Source of the DNA: a virus
Lineage: Duplodnaviria > Heunggongvirae > Uroviricota > Caudoviricetes
Virus record (IMG/VR): IMGVR_UViG_2563366928_000007
Length of the DNA: 12,483 bases
Strand: one strand, 5' to 3'
The notes under the pieces are model-generated. The model saw only the letters and a program-made list of their open reading frames with translations. It did no database searches and was not told the DNA's origin. Made by a program: the position numbers and the translations under genes. The first letter of the stretch is position 1. The number at the start of each line of letters is the position of its first letter. Shown in pieces: positions 4,230 through 12,483 of this stretch.

Positions 4230-7200
4230 ATGGGTAAAGGCAGCAGTAAGGGGCATACCCCGCGCGAAGCGAAGGACAACCTGAAGTCCACGCAGCTGCT
4301 GAGTGTGATCGATGCCATCAGCGAAGGGCCGGTTGAAGGTCCGGTGGATGGATTAAAAAGCGTGCTGCTGAACAGTACGCCGGTGCTGGACAGTGAGGGG
4401 AATACCAATATATCCGGCGTCACGGTGGTGTTCCGGGCCGGTGAGCAGGAGCAGACACCGCCGGAGGGATTTGAATCCTCCGGCTCCGAGACGGTGCTGG
4501 GTACGGAAGTGAAGTACGACACGCCGATTACCCGGACCATCACGTCGGCAAACATCGACCGTCTGCGCTTTACCTTCGGTGTGCAGGCACTGGTGGAAAC
4601 CACCTCAAAGGGGGACCGGAATCCGTCGGAAGTCCGCCTGCTGGTTCAGATACAGCGTAATGGTGGCTGGGTGACGGAAAAAGACATCACCATTAAAGGC
4701 AAAACCACCTCACAGTATCTAGCATCGGTGGTGGTGGGTGACCTGCCGCCGCGCCCGTTCAATATCCGGATGCGCAGGATGACGCCGGACAGCACCACAG
4801 ACCAGCTGCAGAACAAAACGCTCTGGTCGTCATACACCGAAATCATCGATGTGAAACAGTGCTACCCGAACACGGCACTGGTCGGCGTACAGGTGGATTC
4901 GGAGCAGTTCGGCAGCCAGCAGGTGAGCCGTAATTATCATCTGCGCGGGCGTATTCTGCAGGTGCCGTCGAACTATAACCCGCAGACTCGGCAATACAGC
5001 GGTATCTGGGACGGAACGTTTAAGCCAGCATACAGCAATAACATGGCCTGGTGTCTGTGGGATATGCTGACCCATCCACGCTACGGCATGGGGAAACGTC
5101 TTGGTGCGGCGGATGTGGACAAATGGGCGCTGTATGTCATCGGCCAGTACTGCGACCAGTCAGTGCCGGACGGCTTTGGCGGCACGGAGCCGCGCATCAC
5201 CTGTAATGCGTACCTGACCACACAGCGCAAGGCGTGGGATGTGCTCAGTGATTTCTGCTCGGCGATGCGCTGTATGCCGGTATGGAACGGGCAGACGCTG
5301 ACGTTCGTGCAGGACCGACCGTCGGATAAGGTGTGGACCTATAACCGCAGTAATGTGGTGATGCCGGATGATGGCGCGCCGTTCCGCTACAGCTTCAGCG
5401 CCCTGAAGGACCGCCATAATGCCGTTGAGGTGAACTGGATTGACCCGGACAACGGCTGGGAGACGGCGACAGAGCTTGTTGAAGATACGCAGGCCATTGC
5501 CCGTTACGGTCGTAATGTCACGAAGATGGATGCCTTTGGCTGTACCAGCCGGGGGCAGGCACACCGCGCCGGGCTGTGGCTGATTAAAACGGAACTGCTG
5601 GAGACGCAGACCGTGGATTTCAGCGTGGGTGCTGAAGGGCTTCGCCATGTACCGGGCGATGTCATTGAAATCTGCGATGATGACTATGCCGGTATCAGCA
5701 CCGGTGGTCGCGTGCTGGCGGTGAACAGCCAGACCCGGACGCTGACGCTCGACCGTGAAATCACGCTGCCATCCTCCGGTACCACGCTGATAAGCCTGGT
5801 TGACGGAAGTGGTAATCCGGTCAGCGTGGAGGTTCAGTCCGTCACCGACGGACTTAAGGTGAAAGTGAACCGGGTTCCTGACGGCGTTGCAGAATACAGT
5901 GTGTGGGGGCTGAAGCTGCCGACGCTGCGCCAGCGCCTGTTCCGCTGTGTGAGTATCCGTGAGAACGATGACGGCACGTATGCCATCACTGCCGTGCAGC
6001 ATGTACCGGAAAAAGAAGCCATCGTGGATAACGGGGCGCACTTTGACGGCGACCAGAGCGGCACGGTGAATGGTGTCACGCCGCCAGCGGTGCAGCACCT
6101 GACCGCCGAAGTCACCGCAGACAGCGGGGAATATCAGGTGCTGGCGCGCTGGGACACGCCGAAGGTGGTGAAGGGCGTGAGCTTCCTGCTTCGCCTGACC
6201 GTGGCAGCGGATGACGGCAGTGAGCGGCTGGTCAGCACGGCCCGGACGACGGAAACCACATACCGCTTCACGCAACTGGCGCTGGGGCGGTACACGCTGA
6301 CAGTCCGGGCGGTAAATGCGTGGGGACAGCAGGGCGATCCGGCGTCGGTATCGTTCCGGATTGCCGCACCGGTAGCACCGTCGCGGATTGAGCTGACGCC
6401 GGGGTATTTTCAGATAACCGCCACGCCGCATCTTGCCGTTTATGACCCGACGGTACAGTTTGAGTTCTGGTTCTCGGAAAAGCGGATTACCGATATCAGG
6501 CAGGTTGAAACCACAGCGCGCTACCTTGGCACGGGGCTGTACTGGATAGCCGCCAGTATCAATATCAAACCGGGCCATGATTATTATTTTTACGTTCGCA
6601 GTGTGAACACCGTTGGCAAATCGGCATTCGTGGAGGCTGTTGGTCAGCCGAGTGATGATGCATCCGGCTATCTGGATTTTTTCAAAGGCGAGATAGGGAA
6701 AACCCATCTGGCTCAGGAGCTGTGGACGCAGATTGATAACGGTCAGCTTGCGCCTGACCTGGCTGAAATCAGGACGTCCATTACGGATGTCAGCAATGAA
6801 ATCACGCAGACCGTCAATAAGAAACTGGAAGACCAGAGTGCAGCGATCCAGCAGATACAGAAGGTTCAGGTTGATACAAATAATAACCTGAACAGCATGT
6901 GGGCAGTGAAGCTGCAGCAGATGCAGGACGGACGCCTTTATATTGCGGGTATCGGTGCCGGTATTGAGAACACCCCCGACGGCATGCAGAGTCAGGTGCT
7001 GCTGGCGGCAGACAGGATTGCGATGATTAATCCTGCGAATGGCAACACAAAGCCGATGTTTGTTGGTCAGGGCGATCAGATATTCATGAATGAAGTGTTC
7101 CTGAAATATCTGACGGCTCCCACCATTACCAGCGGCGGTAATCCTCCGGCATTTTCCCTGACACCGGACGGGCGACTGACGGCGAAAAATGCCGATATCA

Positions 7201-7709
7201 GCGGTAGCGTGAATGCGAACTCCGGGACGCTCAACAACGTCACGATTAACGAGAACTGTCGGGTTCTGGGAAAACTGTCCGCGAACCAGATTGAAGGCGA
7301 TCTCGTTAAAACAGTGGGCAAAGCTTTCCCCCGGGACTCCCGTGCACCGGAGCGGTGGCCATCAGGGACCATTACCGTCAGGGTTTATGACGATCAGCCG
7401 TTTGACCGGCAAATTGTTATTCCAGCGGTGGCTTTCAGCGGTGCCAGACATGAACGGGAGAATAGCGATACTTATTCGTCATGCCGCCTGATAGTGAAGA
7501 AAAACGGGGCTGAAATTTATAACCGAACGGCTCTGGATAATACTCTGATTTACACGGGTGTTATTGATATGCCTGCAGGCAGTGGCGTAATGACACTGGA
7601 GTTTTCTGTATCAGCATGGTGGGTAAATGGCTGGTATCCCACAGCAAGTATCAGCGATTTGCTGGTTGTTGTGATGAAGAAAGCCACTGCAGGCATCACG
7701 ATTAGCTGA
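4230..7709 (+). CDS. J: Central tail fibre / host specificity protein J (tip attachment protein)
   Basis: 1159-aa ORF with GGAG Shine-Dalgarno 8 nt upstream. The N-terminus [34 protein letters not shown]… and most of the first ~1000 aa match lambda gpJ from memory. The C-terminal ~150-200 aa diverge from lambda in sequence but retain the …[23 protein letters not shown] ending. Confidence 0.95.
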
Positions 7710-7776: not shown

Positions 7777-8376
7777 ATGCGTAAATTATGTGCTGTTATT
7801 CTGTCCACAGTAGTCTGGCTGGTCGCCGCTGGTACGCCAGCGAGCGCAGCAGAGCATCAGTCCACACTAAGCGCCGGGTATCTTCAGACCCATACTGATA
7901 TGCCCGGCAACGATGACCTGAAGGGCATTAACGTGAAATACCGTTATGAATTTACGGACACGCTGGGGCTGGTGACGTCATTCAGTTATGCCAATGCCAA
8001 AGATGAGCAAAAAACGCATTACAGCGATACCCGCTGGCATGAAGATTCAGTGCGTAACCGCTGGTTCAGCATGATGGCGGGGCCGTCTGTACGCGTGAAT
8101 GAATGGTTCAGTGCTTATGCGATGGCAGGTGTGGCTTACAGCCGTGTTTCAACTTTTTCCGGGGATTATCTCCGCGTAACTGACAGCAAGGGGAAAACGC
8201 ACGATGTGCTGACTGGAAGTGATGACGGTCGCCACAGCAACACGTCTCTGGCGTGGGGGGCTGGCGTGCAGTTTAACCCGACCGAATCCGTGGCCATTGA
8301 TATTGCTTATGAAGGCTCCGGCAGTGGTGACTGGCGCACTGACGGTTTCATCGTGGGTGTCGGTTATAAATTCTGA
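7777..8376 (+). CDS. lom: Outer membrane beta-barrel protein Lom (Ail/Lom/PagC/OmpX family)
   Basis: 199-aa ORF with GAGAGG Shine-Dalgarno. N-terminal signal peptide (MRKLCAVILSTVVWLVAAGTPASAAE), alternating amphipathic beta-strand pattern, and C-terminal …GVGYKF ending in Phe as in outer-membrane barrels. Position between J and stf is as in lambda. Confidence 0.9.
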   Translation: MRKLCAVILSTVVWLVAAGTPASAAEHQSTLSAGYLQTHTDMPGNDDLKGINVKYRYEFTDTLGLVTSFSYANAKDEQKTHYSDTRWHEDSVRNRWFSMMAGPSVRVNEWFSAYAMAGVAYSRVSTFSGDYLRVTDSKGKTHDVLTGSDDGRHSNTSLAWGAGVQFNPTESVAIDIAYEGSGSGDWRTDGFIVGVGYKF

Positions 8377-8430: not shown

Positions 8431-8440
8431 TGGAGTGGAT

Positions 8441-10816
8441 ATGGCAGCAGTAAAAATCTCAGGTGTGCTGAAAGATTGTGCGGGAAAACCAATACAGAAC
8501 TGCACTATTCAACTGAAGGCAAAGCGTAACAGCACCACGGTACTGGTGAACACGGTGGCCTCTGAAAATCCGGATGAAGCCGGGCGTTACAGCATGGATG
8601 TTGAGCATGGCCAGTACAGCGTCATCCTGCTGGTTGAAGGTTTTCCGCCTTCACATGCCGGGACCATTACCGTCTATGAAGGCTCCAGACCAGGTACGCT
8701 GAATGATTTTCTCGGTGCCATGACGGAAGATGATGTCATGCCGGAGGCATTGCGTCGTTTTGAGGCAATGGTGGAAGAAGTGGCACGCAACGCCGAAGCC
8801 GCCTCTCAGAGCGCAGCGGCGGCAAAGAAATCCGAAACTGCAGCGGCATCATCGAAGAACGCGGCGAAAACCTCAGAAACGAATGCAGCTAATAGTGCAC
8901 AGGCGGCAGCGACCTCAAAGACTGCATCGGCAAACTCCGCGACAGCAGCCAAAAAATCAGAAACCAACGCGAAAAACAGTGAGACAGCCGCAAAGACGAG
9001 CGAAACCAACGCAAAGTCCAGCCAGACGGCAGCGAAAACCAGCGAAACGAATGCTAAAGCCAGTGAAACTGCAGCAAAAAACAGCCAGGCTTCAGCAGCC
9101 GAAAGCGAGAGCGCGGCAGCCGGTTCTGCGACTTCAGCAGCTGGATCAGCAACTGCTGCGGCTAACAGCCAGAAAGCTGCGAAGACGAGTGAAACTAACG
9201 CAAAGTCCAGCCAGACGGCAGCGAAGACCAGCGAAACGAATGCCAAAGCCAGTGAAACTGCGGCGAAAAGCAGTCAGGATGCAGCGGCCCAAAGCGAGAG
9301 TGCCGCAGCCAGTTCTGCAAGCGCGGCGGCTGCTTCTGCCACTGCATCAGCTAACAGTCAAAAAGCAGCAAAAACCAGTGAAACCAACGCAAAGGTGAGC
9401 GAAACAGCGGCTGCGAACTCAGCGAAAGCATCGGCAGCAAGCCAGACGGCAGCTAAAGCAAGCGAAGATGCAGCCAGAGAGTACGCAAGCCAGGCTGCGG
9501 AGCCGTATAAATATGTCTTACAGCCGCTGCCTGATGTGTGGATACCATTTAACGATTCGCTGGATATGATTACGGGCTTTTCGCCATCATATAAAAAAAT
9601 TGTTATTGGTGACGATGAAATAACGATGCCTGGCGACAAGATTGTTAAGTTTAAACGTGCATCGAAAGCAACCTATATTAACAAATCTGGTGTGCTGACA
9701 GAGGCTGCCATTGACGAGCCACGATTTGAACGTGATGGCCTGCTTATTGAGGGGCAAAGAACAAACTACATGCTCAATTCGGAAAGCCCTGCCAGTTGGG
9801 GGCGATCGTCAAATATGGATGTGCCCGAAACAGGGACGGATAATTTTGGTTTTACCTATGGAAAGTTTGTCTGCAACGATTCTCTGATTGGGCAAACCTC
9901 AGCCATTAATATGGCATCAATTGCTGCAACAAAGTCAGTTGATGTCTCAGGCGATAATAAACACGTGACAACCTCATGTCGTTTTAAAACAGAACTGCAG
10001 GTAAGGTTGCGTATCCGGTTTGATAAATATGACGGTAGCGCAACAACTTTTCTTGGTGATGCGTATATTGATACACAAACGCTTGAAATTAATATGACAG
10101 GCGGTGCTGCCTCAAGGATTACAGCGAGAGTCAGAAAGGACGAAGCTACCGGATGGATTTTTGCAGAGGCAACAATTCAGGCAATTGATGGGGAGTTAAA
10201 AATAGGCTCTCAGATACAGTATTCTCCTAAGCAGAGCGGGGCAACCGTATCTGGTGACTATATTTATCTGGCCACCCCACAAGTAGAAGATGGGCCTTGT
10301 GTATCATCTTTTATTATATCAGGAGCGACGGCGGCGACCCGCGCAAGCGATATAGTTACAGTTCCAATTAAGAATAATCTTTATAATCTTCCTTTTACGG
10401 TTCTTTGTGAGGTACATAAGAACTGGTATAAAACGCCAAATGCAGCGCCACGTGTTTTTGATACCGGCGGTCATCAAACCGGAGCGGCTATTATTCTTGG
10501 CTTCGGTCGTTCAACAGATTACGACGGATTTCCTTATTGCGATATTGGAGGAGCTAACAGACGGGTAAACGAAAACGCATCGCTTGAAAAAATGGTTATG
10601 GGGATGCGTGTAAAGTCAGAGCAGTCTACGTGCTCAGTAAGTAACGGGCATATATCCAGCGAAACAAAAACCACATGGTCCTGTATTCAGAACACCGCAA
10701 TTATCCGTATTGGAGGCCAGACTACAGCCGGGTTACGTCATTTATTTGGTCATGTCAGGAATTTCAGAATATGGCACAAGGCATTGACTGATGCTCAGGT
10801 GGGGGAGTCAATCTAA
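8441..10816 (+). CDS. stf: Side tail fibre protein Stf, mosaic: lambda-like N-terminal domain, repeat shaft, divergent C-terminal receptor-binding region with LamG-like terminal motif
   Basis: Long ORF (track start GTG 8435; ATG 8441 is preferred, with GGAG 5 nt upstream, giving MAAVKISGVLKD… like lambda Stf MAVKISGVLKDGTGKPVQNCTIQLKA…). An S/A/T/K/E/N-rich repeat region follows. The C-terminal ~430 aa are unrelated to lambda Stf and end …GLRHLFGHVRNFRIWHKALTDAQVGESI. Confidence 0.9.
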   Translation: MAAVKISGVLKDCAGKPIQNCTIQLKAKRNSTTVLVNTVASENPDEAGRYSMDVEHGQYSVILLVEGFPPSHAGTITVYEGSRPGTLNDFLGAMTEDDVMPEALRRFEAMVEEVARNAEAASQSAAAAKKSETAAASSKNAAKTSETNAANSAQAAATSKTASANSATAAKKSETNAKNSETAAKTSETNAKSSQTAAKTSETNAKASETAAKNSQASAAESESAAAGSATSAAGSATAAANSQKAAKTSETNAKSSQTAAKTSETNAKASETAAKSSQDAAAQSESAAASSASAAAASATASANSQKAAKTSETNAKVSETAAANSAKASAASQTAAKASEDAAREYASQAAEPYKYVLQPLPDVWIPFNDSLDMITGFSPSYKKIVIGDDEITMPGDKIVKFKRASKATYINKSGVLTEAAIDEPRFERDGLLIEGQRTNYMLNSESPASWGRSSNMDVPETGTDNFGFTYGKFVCNDSLIGQTSAINMASIAATKSVDVSGDNKHVTTSCRFKTELQVRLRIRFDKYDGSATTFLGDAYIDTQTLEINMTGGAASRITARVRKDEATGWIFAEATIQAIDGELKIGSQIQYSPKQSGATVSGDYIYLATPQVEDGPCVSSFIISGATAATRASDIVTVPIKNNLYNLPFTVLCEVHKNWYKTPNAAPRVFDTGGHQTGAAIILGFGRSTDYDGFPYCDIGGANRRVNENASLEKMVMGMRVKSEQSTCSVSNGHISSETKTTWSCIQNTAIIRIGGQTTAGLRHLFGHVRNFRIWHKALTDAQVGESI
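8815..9480 (+). repeat. Low-complexity coding repeat region inside stf, including a ~189-bp (63-aa) tandem direct duplication (copies starting near 9011 and 9200, third partial copy after ~9389)
   Basis: The motif gcaaagtccagccagacggcagcgaa… occurs at ~9011 and again at ~9200, with collinear similarity over ~190 bp. The protein shows reiterated AAKTSETNAK(S/A)S(Q/E)TAAK units. Confidence 0.8.
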
Positions 10817-11097
10817 TGAAAGATTTAACACTCAAATTTGCCGACAGGGCCGACTTTTCGGCCTTTATGGAGAGTATTGGCTATTATGATGACGAGTCGA
10901 TGCAGGATGATATTCTTATTGACGTGATAGGTAACGTGTACAAAGAAACCGGAGAACTGACTGAAGATGGCGAACCGGTATGTGTTAAGGAAGACGGATA
11001 TTTTGTAAACGTGCGCATCATTAATGATTCGCAAATATCGTCATTATTCGATGAATACGTGGTTGCTGTTGAGCATCAACTTCGTGGCTGGATGTGA
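10816..11097 (+). CDS. Hypothetical small acidic protein (93 aa), translationally coupled to stf
   Basis: ATG overlaps the stf stop (TAATG). Codon usage is coherent with neighbouring genes. Strongly acidic (many D/E). No family recognised by eye. Confidence 0.6.
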   Translation: MKDLTLKFADRADFSAFMESIGYYDDESMQDDILIDVIGNVYKETGELTEDGEPVCVKEDGYFVNVRIINDSQISSLFDEYVVAVEHQLRGWM

Positions 11098-11106
11098 GGA
11101 AGAAAA

Positions 11107-12147
11107 ATGGCTACATCGACAGTAATTCCTGATGACATCAAAACGCTAAAATCCGACGTTAGCAAATTAAAAAACGATCAAGGAAGCTACGCAACAAAAT
11201 TATATGTAGACAGCAAAGATGAAATCGTTGGTGACTGGTCTGCTTCATGGTATCAGCAGGTATTGCCAACTAGCGGAGCTATATTTGGGAGAAAACTCCG
11301 CTCAACTCACAGGACGGCAGGTGTTGAGGATGCGTATTGCGAACTATACCTCAAAAAATGGATAGACAGTCCAGGTAACGCAATGGCGCGCCTTAACCTG
11401 AACGATAACGGGACAAACATTTGCTGGGACTTTACCAACCTTTATGGCGGTACGATGATTTTTCCCGGTGACAGCGGATACCTCAAAATGGGTAACTGCC
11501 TTATGTCATACAGCAAGCGTGGAAGTAACGCGCTTATTAAATTTGATTACACCGACACATTACAGATCAAATATGCCAATCATGGGTCAACCATGACATT
11601 AAACACACAGGGAACCGCTTATGCTGGTGTTACTGCTCAATTGTGGGGCAACTCCAGCCGTCCTGTTGTTTATGAAGTCGGTGTTGATGGTGGCGCTTAT
11701 ATGTTCTATGCGCAGAAAAATACCGATAACACCTATATGTTAAGCGTTAATGGTGCATGTCATGCCACCGCATTTAACCAGCATTCCGACCGGGATCTGA
11801 AAGACAACATTCAGGTGATCGATAATGCAACCGACCGCATCCGTAAAATGAACGGCTATACATACACGCTTAAAGAAAACGGTATGCCCTATGCTGGTGT
11901 CATTGCACAGGAAGCTCTGGAAGCAATCCCAGAAGCTGTAGGTTCCGCAATGAAATATCAGGACGGTGCAAGCGGATCGGAAGGTGAAGAAGGTGAACGT
12001 TATTACACAGTAGATTATTCTGGTGTTACTGGCTTGCTTGTTCAGGTAGCCAGAGAGTCAGACGACAGAATAACAGCACTGGAAGAAGAAAATGCAGAAT
12101 TAAAACAAAGATTATCTGCAATTGAGGCGACGCTTGCGTCTAAATAA
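11107..12147 (+). CDS. Tail fibre/spike-like protein with C-terminal intramolecular chaperone autocleavage domain (peptidase S74 / endosialidase-chaperone type)
   Basis: 346-aa ORF with strong GAGGAAG Shine-Dalgarno. The C-terminal ~120 aa carry the S74-type signature: HSDRDLKDNIQ (Ser-x4-Lys autocleavage motif), …YAGVIAQEALEAIPEAVG…, …YYTVDYSGVTGLLVQVARE…, and a terminal coiled coil ITALEEENAELKQRLSAIEATL. The N-terminal ~225 aa are beta-rich and fibre-like. Confidence 0.85.
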   Translation: MATSTVIPDDIKTLKSDVSKLKNDQGSYATKLYVDSKDEIVGDWSASWYQQVLPTSGAIFGRKLRSTHRTAGVEDAYCELYLKKWIDSPGNAMARLNLNDNGTNICWDFTNLYGGTMIFPGDSGYLKMGNCLMSYSKRGSNALIKFDYTDTLQIKYANHGSTMTLNTQGTAYAGVTAQLWGNSSRPVVYEVGVDGGAYMFYAQKNTDNTYMLSVNGACHATAFNQHSDRDLKDNIQVIDNATDRIRKMNGYTYTLKENGMPYAGVIAQEALEAIPEAVGSAMKYQDGASGSEGEEGERYYTVDYSGVTGLLVQVARESDDRITALEEENAELKQRLSAIEATLASK

Positions 12148-12153
12148 TATTAA

Positions 12154-12176
12154 GGGGCCGAGCGCCCCGTTTTATT
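12154..12176 (+). terminator. Possible weak intrinsic terminator or hairpin after the S74 fibre gene
   Basis: GGGGC (12154-12158), loop CGAGC, GCCCC (12164-12168), followed by GTTTTATT. The stem is short and the U-tract imperfect. Confidence 0.35.
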
Positions 12177-12183
12177 GGGTAGG

Positions 12184-12483
12184 ATGAAAATGGATATAAC
12201 ACCTTTCCTTCATGCACTTTGTGCTGTGGCTGCGCAGGTACTGGTTGGTCTTTTTACCGGAAACTGGGCTTACGGGGCGATAGCCGGTTGTACGTTCTTC
12301 ATTGCTCGTGAACATACCCAGGCAGAATATCGCTGGATTGAAATGTTCGGGCATGGCAAGCGTATGAATATGCCGTGGTGGGGTGGTTTTGATCCGCGAG
12401 TGTGGGATGTGGCAAGCCTGATGGATTTTTCTGTGCCGGTGGTGGCTTGTCTGCTGGTCTGGCTGTTGGTTAATCGTGGGTGA
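12184..12483 (+). CDS. Small predicted inner-membrane protein (~97-99 aa, two hydrophobic segments), function unknown; moron candidate
   Basis: ORF complete within the window (TGA 12481-12483). Track start is TTG 12175; more likely starts are ATG 12184 or ATG 12190 (AGGA 5 nt upstream of 12190). Hydrophobic stretches LHALCAVAAQVLVGLFTGNWAYGAIAGCTFFIA and VASLMDFSVPVVACLLVWLLV flank a charged loop. Confidence 0.6.
   Translation: MKMDITPFLHALCAVAAQVLVGLFTGNWAYGAIAGCTFFIAREHTQAEYRWIEMFGHGKRMNMPWWGGFDPRVWDVASLMDFSVPVVACLLVWLLVNRG

What the first reader, a model, noticed from the sequence alone, without database searches (positions are those of the whole stretch)
10816..12147. The 93-aa acidic ORF and the S74 fibre ORF are in the same frame, separated by a single TGA
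The ORF starting at 10816 and the one starting at 11107 share a reading frame (both coordinates are 1 mod 3). The only stop between them is TGA at 11095-11097, followed by three sense codons (GGA AGA AAA) and then ATG. Three readings are possible: a single ancestral ~443-aa fibre gene split by a nonsense mutation; low-level UGA readthrough producing an N-terminally extended fibre; or two genuinely separate genes, since the ATG at 11107 has a strong GAGGAAG Shine-Dalgarno that contains the TGA. Same-frame arrangement occurs by chance one time in three, so this is suggestive only.
Basis: seen in the sequence. Interest (0 to 1): 0.55.

Follow-up and report, generated by a model that had tools for sequence, protein, structure and literature searches.

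The report
Two adjacent tail-fibre genes, in frame by chance
The small acidic gene and the S74 tail-fibre gene really do share a frame across one TGA, but comparison with relatives shows two ordinary, separately translated phage tail-fibre genes, not a split gene or a readthrough site.

Summary
ORF 10816-11097 (93 aa, stop TGA 11095-11097) and ORF 11107-12147 (346 aa, Peptidase_S74) share a frame and are separated by TGA plus GGA AGA AAA.

- **No fused relatives.** Every genuine relative of the 93-aa protein among 1.84 billion representative proteins is a small stand-alone protein. All end at a conserved R-x-W-x-stop.
- **Frame is random.** Across 159 related loci the gap to the next gene is -10, -4, 1, 2, 9, 10, 11, 12 or more bases. 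Grouped by cluster and junction type, 10 are in frame, 9 are +1 and 12 are +2.
- **Stop codons.** Most relatives use TAA. One variant of the same clade has a second in-frame TAA in the spacer. No contig has a sense codon at the TGA (159 of 159 are TGA).
- **No RNA structure** follows the stop.

The 9-base gap is what a Shine-Dalgarno sequence built into a stop codon produces. The window is a lambdoid prophage side-tail-fibre module, about 99% identical to phage Tritos: proximal Stf-like fibre, small protein, distal S74 fibre.

The small protein (phrog_1361, function unknown) is translationally coupled to the upstream fibre. That is the only mildly interesting point.

The parts
8435..10816 (+). 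Proximal side tail fibre (Stf-like). The ORF opens at GTG 8435. The likely start is ATG 8444, giving 790 aa as annotated in phage Tritos. Domains: N-terminal tail anchor, GTA_spike_fiber domain, C-terminal ConA-like/LamG-like domain.
   Evidence: Pfam phage_tail_N at residues 5-134, E=1e-65. NCBIfam GTA_spike_fiber at 437-637. Weak Laminin_G_3 at the C-terminus, E=0.0028, below the cut-off. The N-terminus matches PDB 9e7m 'Tail fiber protein', E=1e-47. Tritos TRITO_19 is annotated as a lambda stf homologue.
10814..10818 (+). TAATG overlap: the stop of the proximal fibre gene shares a base with the start of the small gene (translational coupling).
   Evidence: Sequence. The same stop/start overlap (TAATG or ATGA) occurs in 85 of 93 distinct family members.
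10816..11097 (+). Gene for a 93-aa acidic protein (phrog_1361, function unknown). It is a stand-alone small protein ending in the conserved R-x-W-x motif.
   Evidence: PHROG match E=2.4e-46 over the full length. No Pfam or NCBIfam match. AF2 model with pLDDT 86.4: a compact alpha/beta domain with a low-confidence C-terminal tail. Family alignment A1.
11095..11097 (+). TGA stop codon of the small gene. It is a genuine terminator that doubles as the 5' end of the next gene's Shine-Dalgarno.
   Evidence: TGA in 83 of 83 viral and 76 of 76 metagenome contigs carrying this junction. Relatives have TAA at the same position.
11096..11102 (+). Shine-Dalgarno GAGGAAG for the distal fibre gene.
   Evidence: Sequence. 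Relatives have TAAGGA/TAAGGAG/TGAGG at the same place with gaps of 9-12 bases.
11107..12147 (+). Distal tail-fibre protein (346 aa) with a conserved N-terminal attachment motif (MATSTVIPDDIKTLK), a variable receptor-binding middle part and a C-terminal S74 intramolecular chaperone domain.
   Evidence: Pfam PF13884. phrog_4563 'tail fiber protein', E=3.5e-220. The N-terminal motif is conserved from Met1 in JK16, KarlJaspers, JenP1, IrisVonRoten and L6jm.
11785..12144 (+). S74 intramolecular chaperone region starting at the SDRDLK Ser/Lys motif (fibre residues 227-232). It is expected to be cleaved off after trimerisation.
   Evidence: Motif position. It aligns with SDRRIK of PDB 6f45, a long tail fibre distal subunit. 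The cleavage is inferred from knowledge of the family, not tested.
12154..12176 (+). Terminator-like hairpin GGGGCCGAGCGCCCC followed by a T-run, after the fibre gene.
12190..12483 (+). 97-aa predicted membrane protein (phrog_1443, function unknown), the next gene of the module.
   Evidence: Annotated as a separate CDS in Tritos. The phage 21 homologue is annotated 'putative membrane protein, 2 TMDs'.

Best explanation
These are two separate, independently initiated genes of a lambdoid prophage side-tail-fibre operon, and their shared frame is a coincidence. The 93-aa gene ends at a real, ancestral stop codon. That stop forms the 5' part of the Shine-Dalgarno (tGAGGAAG) for the next gene, and a stop-embedded SD naturally places the next ATG 9-12 bases downstream. 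Here the gap happens to be 9. The operon encodes three products. The first is a proximal Stf-like fibre that anchors to the tail tip and ends in a ConA-like lectin domain. The second is a small acidic protein of unknown role, translationally coupled to that fibre. The third is a short distal fibre whose conserved N-terminus attaches it to the proximal part, and whose C-terminal S74 chaperone domain folds the trimer and then cuts itself off. Shown here: gene boundaries, family memberships, and variation of frame and spacing among relatives. Inferred: the attachment order, the S74 self-cleavage, and the role of the small protein. For that role I estimate about 45% a structural connector at the proximal/distal joint, about 35% an assembly chaperone for the upstream fibre's C-terminal domain, and the rest other.
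For: (1) All public annotations call separate genes: Tritos TRITO_20/21, E. coli C4, PhiR49_1 and JK16. The module occurs in 1,865 of 5,426 complete E. coli genomes. (2) There are no fused homologues. Of 227 word-index hits, the 120 listed are 87-114 aa and nearly all 93 aa. An exhaustive HMMER scan of 1.84 billion representatives gave 52 hits. All genuine ones are at most 150 aa. The only two long proteins match short acidic stretches of 26-30 residues, repeated several times. (3) The C-terminus R-x-W-[AMSC]-stop is conserved across the family. This holds whether the next gene is an S74 fibre, another fibre tip, a membrane protein, a terminase small subunit or a GIY-YIG endonuclease. (4) The junction survey covered 159 loci with 61 distinct junctions. 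Gaps were -10, -4, 1, 2, 9, 10, 11, 12, 28 and larger. Frames were 10 in frame, 9 at +1 and 12 at +2, p=0.62. Close functional equivalents KarlJaspers and VogelGryff have TAA + 2 bases, which is out of frame, and Dhillonvirus 'rolling' has TAA + 11. (5) In-frame relatives almost all use TAA: JK16, JenP1, IrisVonRoten, L6jm, AZ21 and APEC E18055. (6) Variant L064 of the same clade reads TGA GGG AGA TAA ATG, so readthrough would stop two codons later. (7) No sense codon occurs at the stop in 159 contigs. (8) The distal fibre N-terminus is conserved from Met1 onward, while the spacer is conserved only as an SD. (9) There is no RNA structure after the stop: z = +0.92, with 162 of 200 shuffles folding as well. 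(10) The small protein is predicted to be a self-contained domain (pLDDT 86.4).
Against: Within this E. coli clade the TGA, the 9-base gap and the shared frame are fixed: 96 of 97 junctions have no further stop. UGA is the leakiest stop codon in E. coli (established knowledge, from memory). A trace of a 443-aa fusion is therefore probably made, and nothing here proves it is functionless. Among enterobacterial junctions with a stop-embedded SD, gaps of 9 or 12 bases (12 types) are somewhat commoner than 10 or 11 (7 types). Many of those types are related by descent, and 9 is the expected optimum for SD spacing. No protein-level data were available.
Confidence: 0.93

Rival explanations
1. Programmed low-level UGA readthrough makes a minor 443-aa fibre species carrying the small domain covalently at its N-terminus, as the Qbeta A1 protein is made.
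For: The shared frame, the single TGA and a spacer free of stops are fixed in this clade: 159 of 159 contigs have TGA, and 96 of 97 junctions have no second stop. UGA is the leakiest stop in E. coli (from memory).
Against: Frame is not conserved across the family: 10 of 31, which is chance level. Functionally equivalent modules are out of frame, namely KarlJaspers, VogelGryff and 'rolling'. In-frame relatives use TAA. L064 has an in-frame TAA in the spacer. No downstream structure is present. The TGA and spacer are already accounted for as the SD.
Confidence: 0.03
2. A single ancestral fibre gene of about 443 aa was split by a nonsense mutation, so the locus is a pseudogene or a recently fissioned gene.
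For: Only the shared frame and the short gap.
Against: There is no continuous homologue among 1.84 billion representatives or among 227 close hits. The stop sits at a family-wide conserved C-terminus. The small gene occurs without any S74 gene in phage 21, 4A7, ev243, Vequintavirinae and many environmental phages. The downstream ATG has its own SD, and the N-terminus is conserved from Met1. The stop is TGA in all 159 contigs, so it is not a sporadic mutation.
Confidence: 0.01
3. The same-frame arrangement is maintained because the junction is a recombination joint. A conserved cassette is exchanged as a block between phages, and the frame is merely inherited with it. The cassette comprises the end of the Stf gene, the small gene and the first ~25 codons of the distal fibre gene.
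For: E. coli matches often cover only query 1 to about 480 plus the far end, while the fibre body differs (hits H11-H17). Pairs with small proteins at least 90% identical include 645 with upstream C-terminal identity below 50%, but only 17 with divergent downstream N-termini.
Against: This explains why the arrangement persists within the clade, not why it would be functional. It is compatible with, and really a refinement of, the best explanation.
Confidence: 0.5

Closest known systems
Lateral tail fibre locus of Tequintavirus IrisVonRoten (Bas32): Gp22 proximal fibre, Gp23 small protein, Gp24 distal 'T-shaped' fibre with intramolecular chaperone (Humolli et al. 2025, PMC11990801)
   Same: Same three-gene order. 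The proximal fibre's C-terminal 220 aa are 67% identical, and that paper describes the region as a galectin-like domain. The small protein is 39% identical. The distal fibre has the same N-terminal motif and an S74 domain. The gap after the small gene is also 9 bases.
   Different: The stop there is TAA. The distal fibre is 574 aa with two receptor-binding domains. The proximal fibre anchors through a T5-type LtfC collar rather than a lambda-type tail tip. The paper does not assign a role to the small protein.
Branched LtfA/LtfB lateral tail fibres of T5-like phages DT57C and DT571/2 (Golomidova et al. 2016, PMC4728585; Ayala et al. 2023, PMC10713586)
   Same: A two-protein fibre in which the second protein attaches through the first. 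S74 chaperone domains are present. Recombination within the locus is documented, including an in-register deletion that fused ltfA and ltfB in a laboratory stock.
   Different: No small gene is listed between ltfA (gp108) and ltfB (gp107). Both proteins carry S74 domains there, whereas here only the distal one does.
Phage lambda stf-tfa (fibre gene followed by a small assembly-chaperone gene)
   Same: The N-terminal Stf anchor domain is homologous (PF08400; Tritos annotation). The fibre gene is followed immediately by a small gene.
   Different: The 93-aa protein has no detectable similarity to Tfa: no Pfam or NCBIfam hit, and the fold search gave only generic alpha/beta matches with Z no higher than 5.4. 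A chaperone role is a hypothesis only.
Qbeta A1 protein (programmed UGA readthrough of the coat gene); comparison from memory
   Same: A UGA followed by an open in-frame extension in an E. coli phage.
   Different: In Qbeta the extension has no start codon or SD of its own, and the readthrough product is essential and conserved. Here the downstream ORF has its own SD and ATG, and frame and stop identity are not conserved among relatives.

Membership tests
Programmed stop-codon readthrough site | Downstream ORF in the same frame with no further stop before the extension | tested here: met
   Translating 10816-12147 gives one internal stop. One clade variant (L064) has a second in-frame TAA.
Programmed stop-codon readthrough site | Frame and a leaky stop codon conserved in homologous loci | tested here: not met
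   Frames are 10 in frame, 9 at +1 and 12 at +2. Gaps range from -10 to more than 100 bases, and most stops are TAA.
Programmed stop-codon readthrough site | Stimulatory sequence context or downstream RNA structure | tested here: not met
   The MFE of 11080-11180 is -12.9 kcal/mol, z = +0.92 against shuffles. The bases after the stop are accounted for as the SD.
Programmed stop-codon readthrough site | The extended protein is detected and required | not testable with these tools
   This needs proteomics or a reporter, plus a TGA-to-TAATAA mutant.
Gene split by a nonsense mutation (pseudogene) | Intact homologues encode one continuous protein spanning both ORFs | tested here: not met
   No spanning protein appears among the 52 hits in 1.84 billion representatives, nor among the 120 best-scoring of 227 word-index hits, which are 87-114 aa. 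There is no sense codon at the stop in 159 contigs.
Gene split by a nonsense mutation (pseudogene) | The stop lies at a position that is internal in the family | tested here: not met
   The stop follows the family-wide C-terminal R-x-W-x motif.
Peptidase_S74 / intramolecular-chaperone tail fibres (PF13884) | Profile match above Pfam's gathering score | tested here: met
   53.7 bits against 22, residues 227-278.
Peptidase_S74 / intramolecular-chaperone tail fibres (PF13884) | Ser and Lys of the catalytic dyad in the S-D-x-x-x-K motif at the start of the domain | tested here: met
   SDRDLK at residues 227-232, aligned to SDRRIK of PDB 6f45. The dyad assignment comes from knowledge of the family.
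Peptidase_S74 / intramolecular-chaperone tail fibres (PF13884) | Autoproteolytic release of the C-terminal domain after trimerisation | not testable with these tools
   Biochemical.
phrog_1361 small proteins (function unknown) | Full-length profile match | tested here: met
   E=2.4e-46, residues 1-93 on profile positions 1-92 of 92.
Lambda-type side tail fibre (Stf), PF08400 N-terminal anchor | N-terminal 'Prophage tail fibre N-terminal' domain, located after J and lom | tested here: met
   E=1e-65. There is a PDB 9e7m match.
Two-part (proximal + distal) lateral tail fibres | The distal protein physically attaches to the proximal protein | not testable with these tools
   Inferred from homology to IrisVonRoten Gp22/Gp24. 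It needs structure determination or multimer modelling.

The most novel reading that the evidence does not exclude
In this E. coli lambdoid clade the in-frame UGA has been fixed because a small fraction of ribosomes read through it. That would covalently tether the small acidic domain to the N-terminus of a few distal-fibre subunits and so modulate how the distal fibre docks on the proximal fibre. The evidence does not exclude this for this clade alone, since TGA, frame and gap are invariant in 159 contigs. Nothing in the wider family supports it.
Probability: 0.03. Interest if true: 0.55.

Novelty: already known. Interest (0 to 1): 0.1.

Why it matters
For the question asked it matters little. 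The locus is an ordinary, correctly annotated pair of adjacent phage genes, and the shared frame carries no recoding signal.

The useful by-product is a clearer picture of a very common but unstudied small protein family, phrog_1361. It is present in about a third of complete E. coli genomes. It also occurs in lambdoid, T1-like, T5-like, 9g-like, Dhillonvirus and rV5-like phages.

- It is almost always translationally coupled to a fibre protein that ends in a ConA-like lectin domain.
- It sits inside the conserved 'joint' between the variable receptor-binding parts of two-part lateral tail fibres.
- If it proves to be the connector or assembly factor for these fibres, it would matter for engineering host range by swapping fibre modules.

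Tried and rejected
- **Locus search with the 18-sequence alignment A1.** It failed because no stretch was conserved enough.
- **The single allowed genome-contig scan.** With a narrower alignment it returned only 3 loci, so diversity came from viral contigs and GenBank phages instead.
- **PDB sequence search with the family profile.** No significant hit.
- **Literature.** The DT57C papers describe a different two-gene locus without the small gene. The two BASEL papers describe the proximal/distal fibre architecture but assign no role to the small protein. The Hf4s and E. coli HS preprints were not informative.
- **Co-variation analysis.** I compared the small protein with the upstream C-terminus and with the downstream N-terminus. 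The correlations were similar (0.61 and 0.60), so they do not identify the partner. Only the discordant-pair counts hint at tighter linkage to the downstream N-terminus, and physical proximity could produce that.
- **Modelling the 443-aa fusion with AF2.** I decided against it. A single-sequence monomer model of a trimeric fibre would not be interpretable.
Full report
**1. Observation**

The sequence is as described.
- The 93-aa ORF runs from ATG 10816 to TGA 11095-11097.
- The next nine bases are GGA AGA AAA.
- ATG 11107 opens a 346-aa ORF that ends at TAA 12145-12147.
- Both starts are 1 mod 3, and one stop lies between them.
- GAGGAAG (11096-11102) includes the last two bases of the stop.
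- The 346-aa protein carries Peptidase_S74 at residues 227-278.
- The 93-aa protein is acidic, with pI 4.05.

**2. Context**

The window is the tail end of a lambdoid prophage.

| Coordinates | Gene |
|---|---|
| 4230-7709 | J |
| 7777-8376 | Lom |
| 8435/8444-10816 | Stf-type fibre |
| 10816-11097 | small gene |
| 11107-12147 | S74 fibre |
| 12154-12168 | terminator-like hairpin |
| 12190-12483 | 97-aa membrane protein |

- The Stf-type fibre has a PF08400 N-terminal anchor, a GTA_spike_fiber domain and a weak Laminin_G_3 match at its C-terminus.
- The region is 99-100% identical to E. coli prophages and to phages Tritos and 2G7b, where the genes are annotated separately.
- Part or all of it occurs in 1,865 of 5,426 complete E. 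coli genomes.

**3. Is it one gene?**

No.
- A word-index search returned 227 relatives of the small protein. The 120 listed are 87-114 aa and nearly all 93 aa.
- An exhaustive HMMER scan of 1.84 billion representative proteins returned 52 hits. All genuine ones are at most 150 aa. The only two long proteins match 26-30 acidic residues, repeated several times.
- The family ends uniformly in R-x-W-[A/M/S/C] followed by the stop.
- The AF2 model is a self-contained alpha/beta domain (pLDDT 86.4) with a floppy C-terminal tail.
- The model has no informative structural or sequence relative in the PDB.

**4. Is the frame conserved?**

I collected homologous loci from several sources.
- GenBank phages: lambdoid, Drexlerviridae, Dhillonvirus, Queuovirinae, Tequintavirus and Vequintavirinae.
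- IMG/VR viral contigs.
- Three bacterial genomes.

Across 159 loci there are 61 distinct junctions.

| Gap to next gene | Examples |
|---|---|
| -10 | one environmental contig |
| -4 (ATGA overlap) | environmental contigs |
| 1 | environmental contigs |
| 2 | KarlJaspers, VogelGryff |
| 9 | this clade, JenP1, IrisVonRoten, L6jm, AZ21 |
| 10 | L099, L122, L123 |
| 11 | 'rolling' and several environmental phages |
| 12 | JK16, APEC E18055, phage 21 |
| 28 to more than 100 | CarlMeissner (98, with a terminator) and others |

- Counting each 70%-identity cluster and junction type once gives 10 in frame, 9 at +1 and 12 at +2. That is 1/3 each (p = 0.62).
- Nearly all in-frame relatives end in TAA.
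- Variant L064, from the same clade as the window, reads TGA GGG AGA TAA ATG.
- Pattern scans with NNN at the stop position found TGA in 83 of 83 viral and 76 of 76 metagenome contigs. There was never a sense codon.
- The RNA after the stop is unstructured (z = +0.92).

**5. Why 9 bases?**

In most enterobacterial members the stop codon is the first part of the next gene's Shine-Dalgarno (TAAGGA, TAAGGAG, TGAGGA). With the SD fixed there, normal SD-to-ATG spacing puts the ATG 9-12 bases after the stop. All four values occur, and two of the four are in frame. The distal fibre's N-terminal motif (M-A/V-T-x-T-x-I-P-x-D-I-x-x-L-K) is conserved from Met1. The spacer is conserved only as an SD.

**6. 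What the small gene goes with**

- In 85 of 93 distinct family members, the stop of a long upstream ORF overlaps the small gene's ATG as TAATG or ATGA.
- About 82 of 86 of those upstream proteins end in an H-I-R-N-F-R-I-W-H-x-x-L-T-x-x-Q-I-x-G-L-R-like motif.
- That motif is the last strand of a ConA-like/LamG domain. The Pfam match is weak for the window and above threshold for L116. The 67%-identical IrisVonRoten Gp22 C-terminus is described as galectin-like in PMC11990801.
- The downstream gene is not constant. It can be an S74 fibre, another fibre tip, the membrane protein directly (phage 21, 4A7, ev243), a terminase small subunit, a GIY-YIG endonuclease, or a baseplate-like protein.
- Within E. 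coli, the block formed by the end of stf, the small gene and the first ~25 codons of the distal fibre stays conserved while both flanks vary.

So the small protein belongs functionally to the fibre joint. Whether it is a connector or an assembly factor cannot be decided here.

**7. Comparison with known systems**

- The architecture matches the proximal/distal lateral tail fibres described for IrisVonRoten (PMC11990801).
- It is conceptually like the LtfA/LtfB fibres of DT57C (PMC4728585, PMC10713586).
- The S74 domain has the expected SDRDLK Ser/Lys motif at residues 227-232.
- None of the defining features of a recoding site beyond the bare frame is met.

**8. Verdict**

These are two ordinary genes, and the shared frame is chance. 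Trace UGA readthrough is physically likely in E. coli (from memory) but shows no sign of selection. Interest is low. The residual point of interest is the uncharacterised but very widespread small protein.

Noticed in passing
window 12190-12483; L085 3292-3585 (phage 21); L093 2789-3082 (ev243); L090 2792-3085 (4A7): A 97-aa two-TM membrane protein (phrog_1443, function unknown) closes the fibre module. In phage 21, 4A7 and ev243 it follows the small gene directly, with the same 9- or 12-base SD-in-stop junction and no S74 fibre gene. This looks as if the distal fibre gene had been excised or inserted precisely as a cassette.
   Followed up: partly
window ~10700-11180; E. coli hits H11-H17: The last ~35 codons of stf, the small gene and the first ~25 codons of the distal fibre form a conserved block, while the stf lectin domain and the distal fibre body are swapped among prophages. 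Distal fibres of 227, 229, 234 and 346 aa occur. This is probably a recombination joint for fibre mosaicism.
   Followed up: partly
L086 3270-3947 (KarlJaspers bas06_0035); L087 3267-4433 (VogelGryff bas25_0024): GenBank starts for the S74 genes of these BASEL phages lie 10 bases inside the small gene. The conserved MAT.../MAK... N-terminus begins at the ATG 2 bases after the small gene's TAA, so the deposited starts are probably 4 codons too early. The same genes are labelled 'putative lateral tail fiber chaperone', although they are distal fibres with an S74 domain.
   Followed up: partly
window 8435-8446: The longest ORF for the Stf-like fibre opens at GTG 8435 (793 aa), but an ATG lies at 8441 (VDMAAV...). 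Tritos annotates 790 aa, which corresponds to a start at 8444, and the PHROG profile aligns from residue 4. The true start is uncertain by a few codons.
   Followed up: no
L319 363-2720 (E. coli APEC E18055): In this prophage the stf gene is broken into a pseudogene fragment and a separate 'head spike fiber domain' CDS. The small gene (89 aa, TAA + 12 bases) and the 346-aa S74 fibre remain intact.
   Followed up: no
L002 3810-4601 (E. coli C4): An Avs2 (AVAST type 2) anti-phage defence gene sits about 500 bases downstream of the membrane-protein gene at the end of this prophage's fibre module.
   Followed up: no
window 5160-6707, minus strand: A 515-aa antisense ORF lies entirely inside the J gene. 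It is most likely a by-product of J's codon composition. I did not examine it.
   Followed up: no
window 9743-10345 (Stf residues 437-637): The proximal fibre carries NCBIfam's GTA_spike_fiber domain, named after the head spikes of the Rhodobacter gene transfer agent. Here it sits in the shaft of a tail fibre.
   Followed up: no
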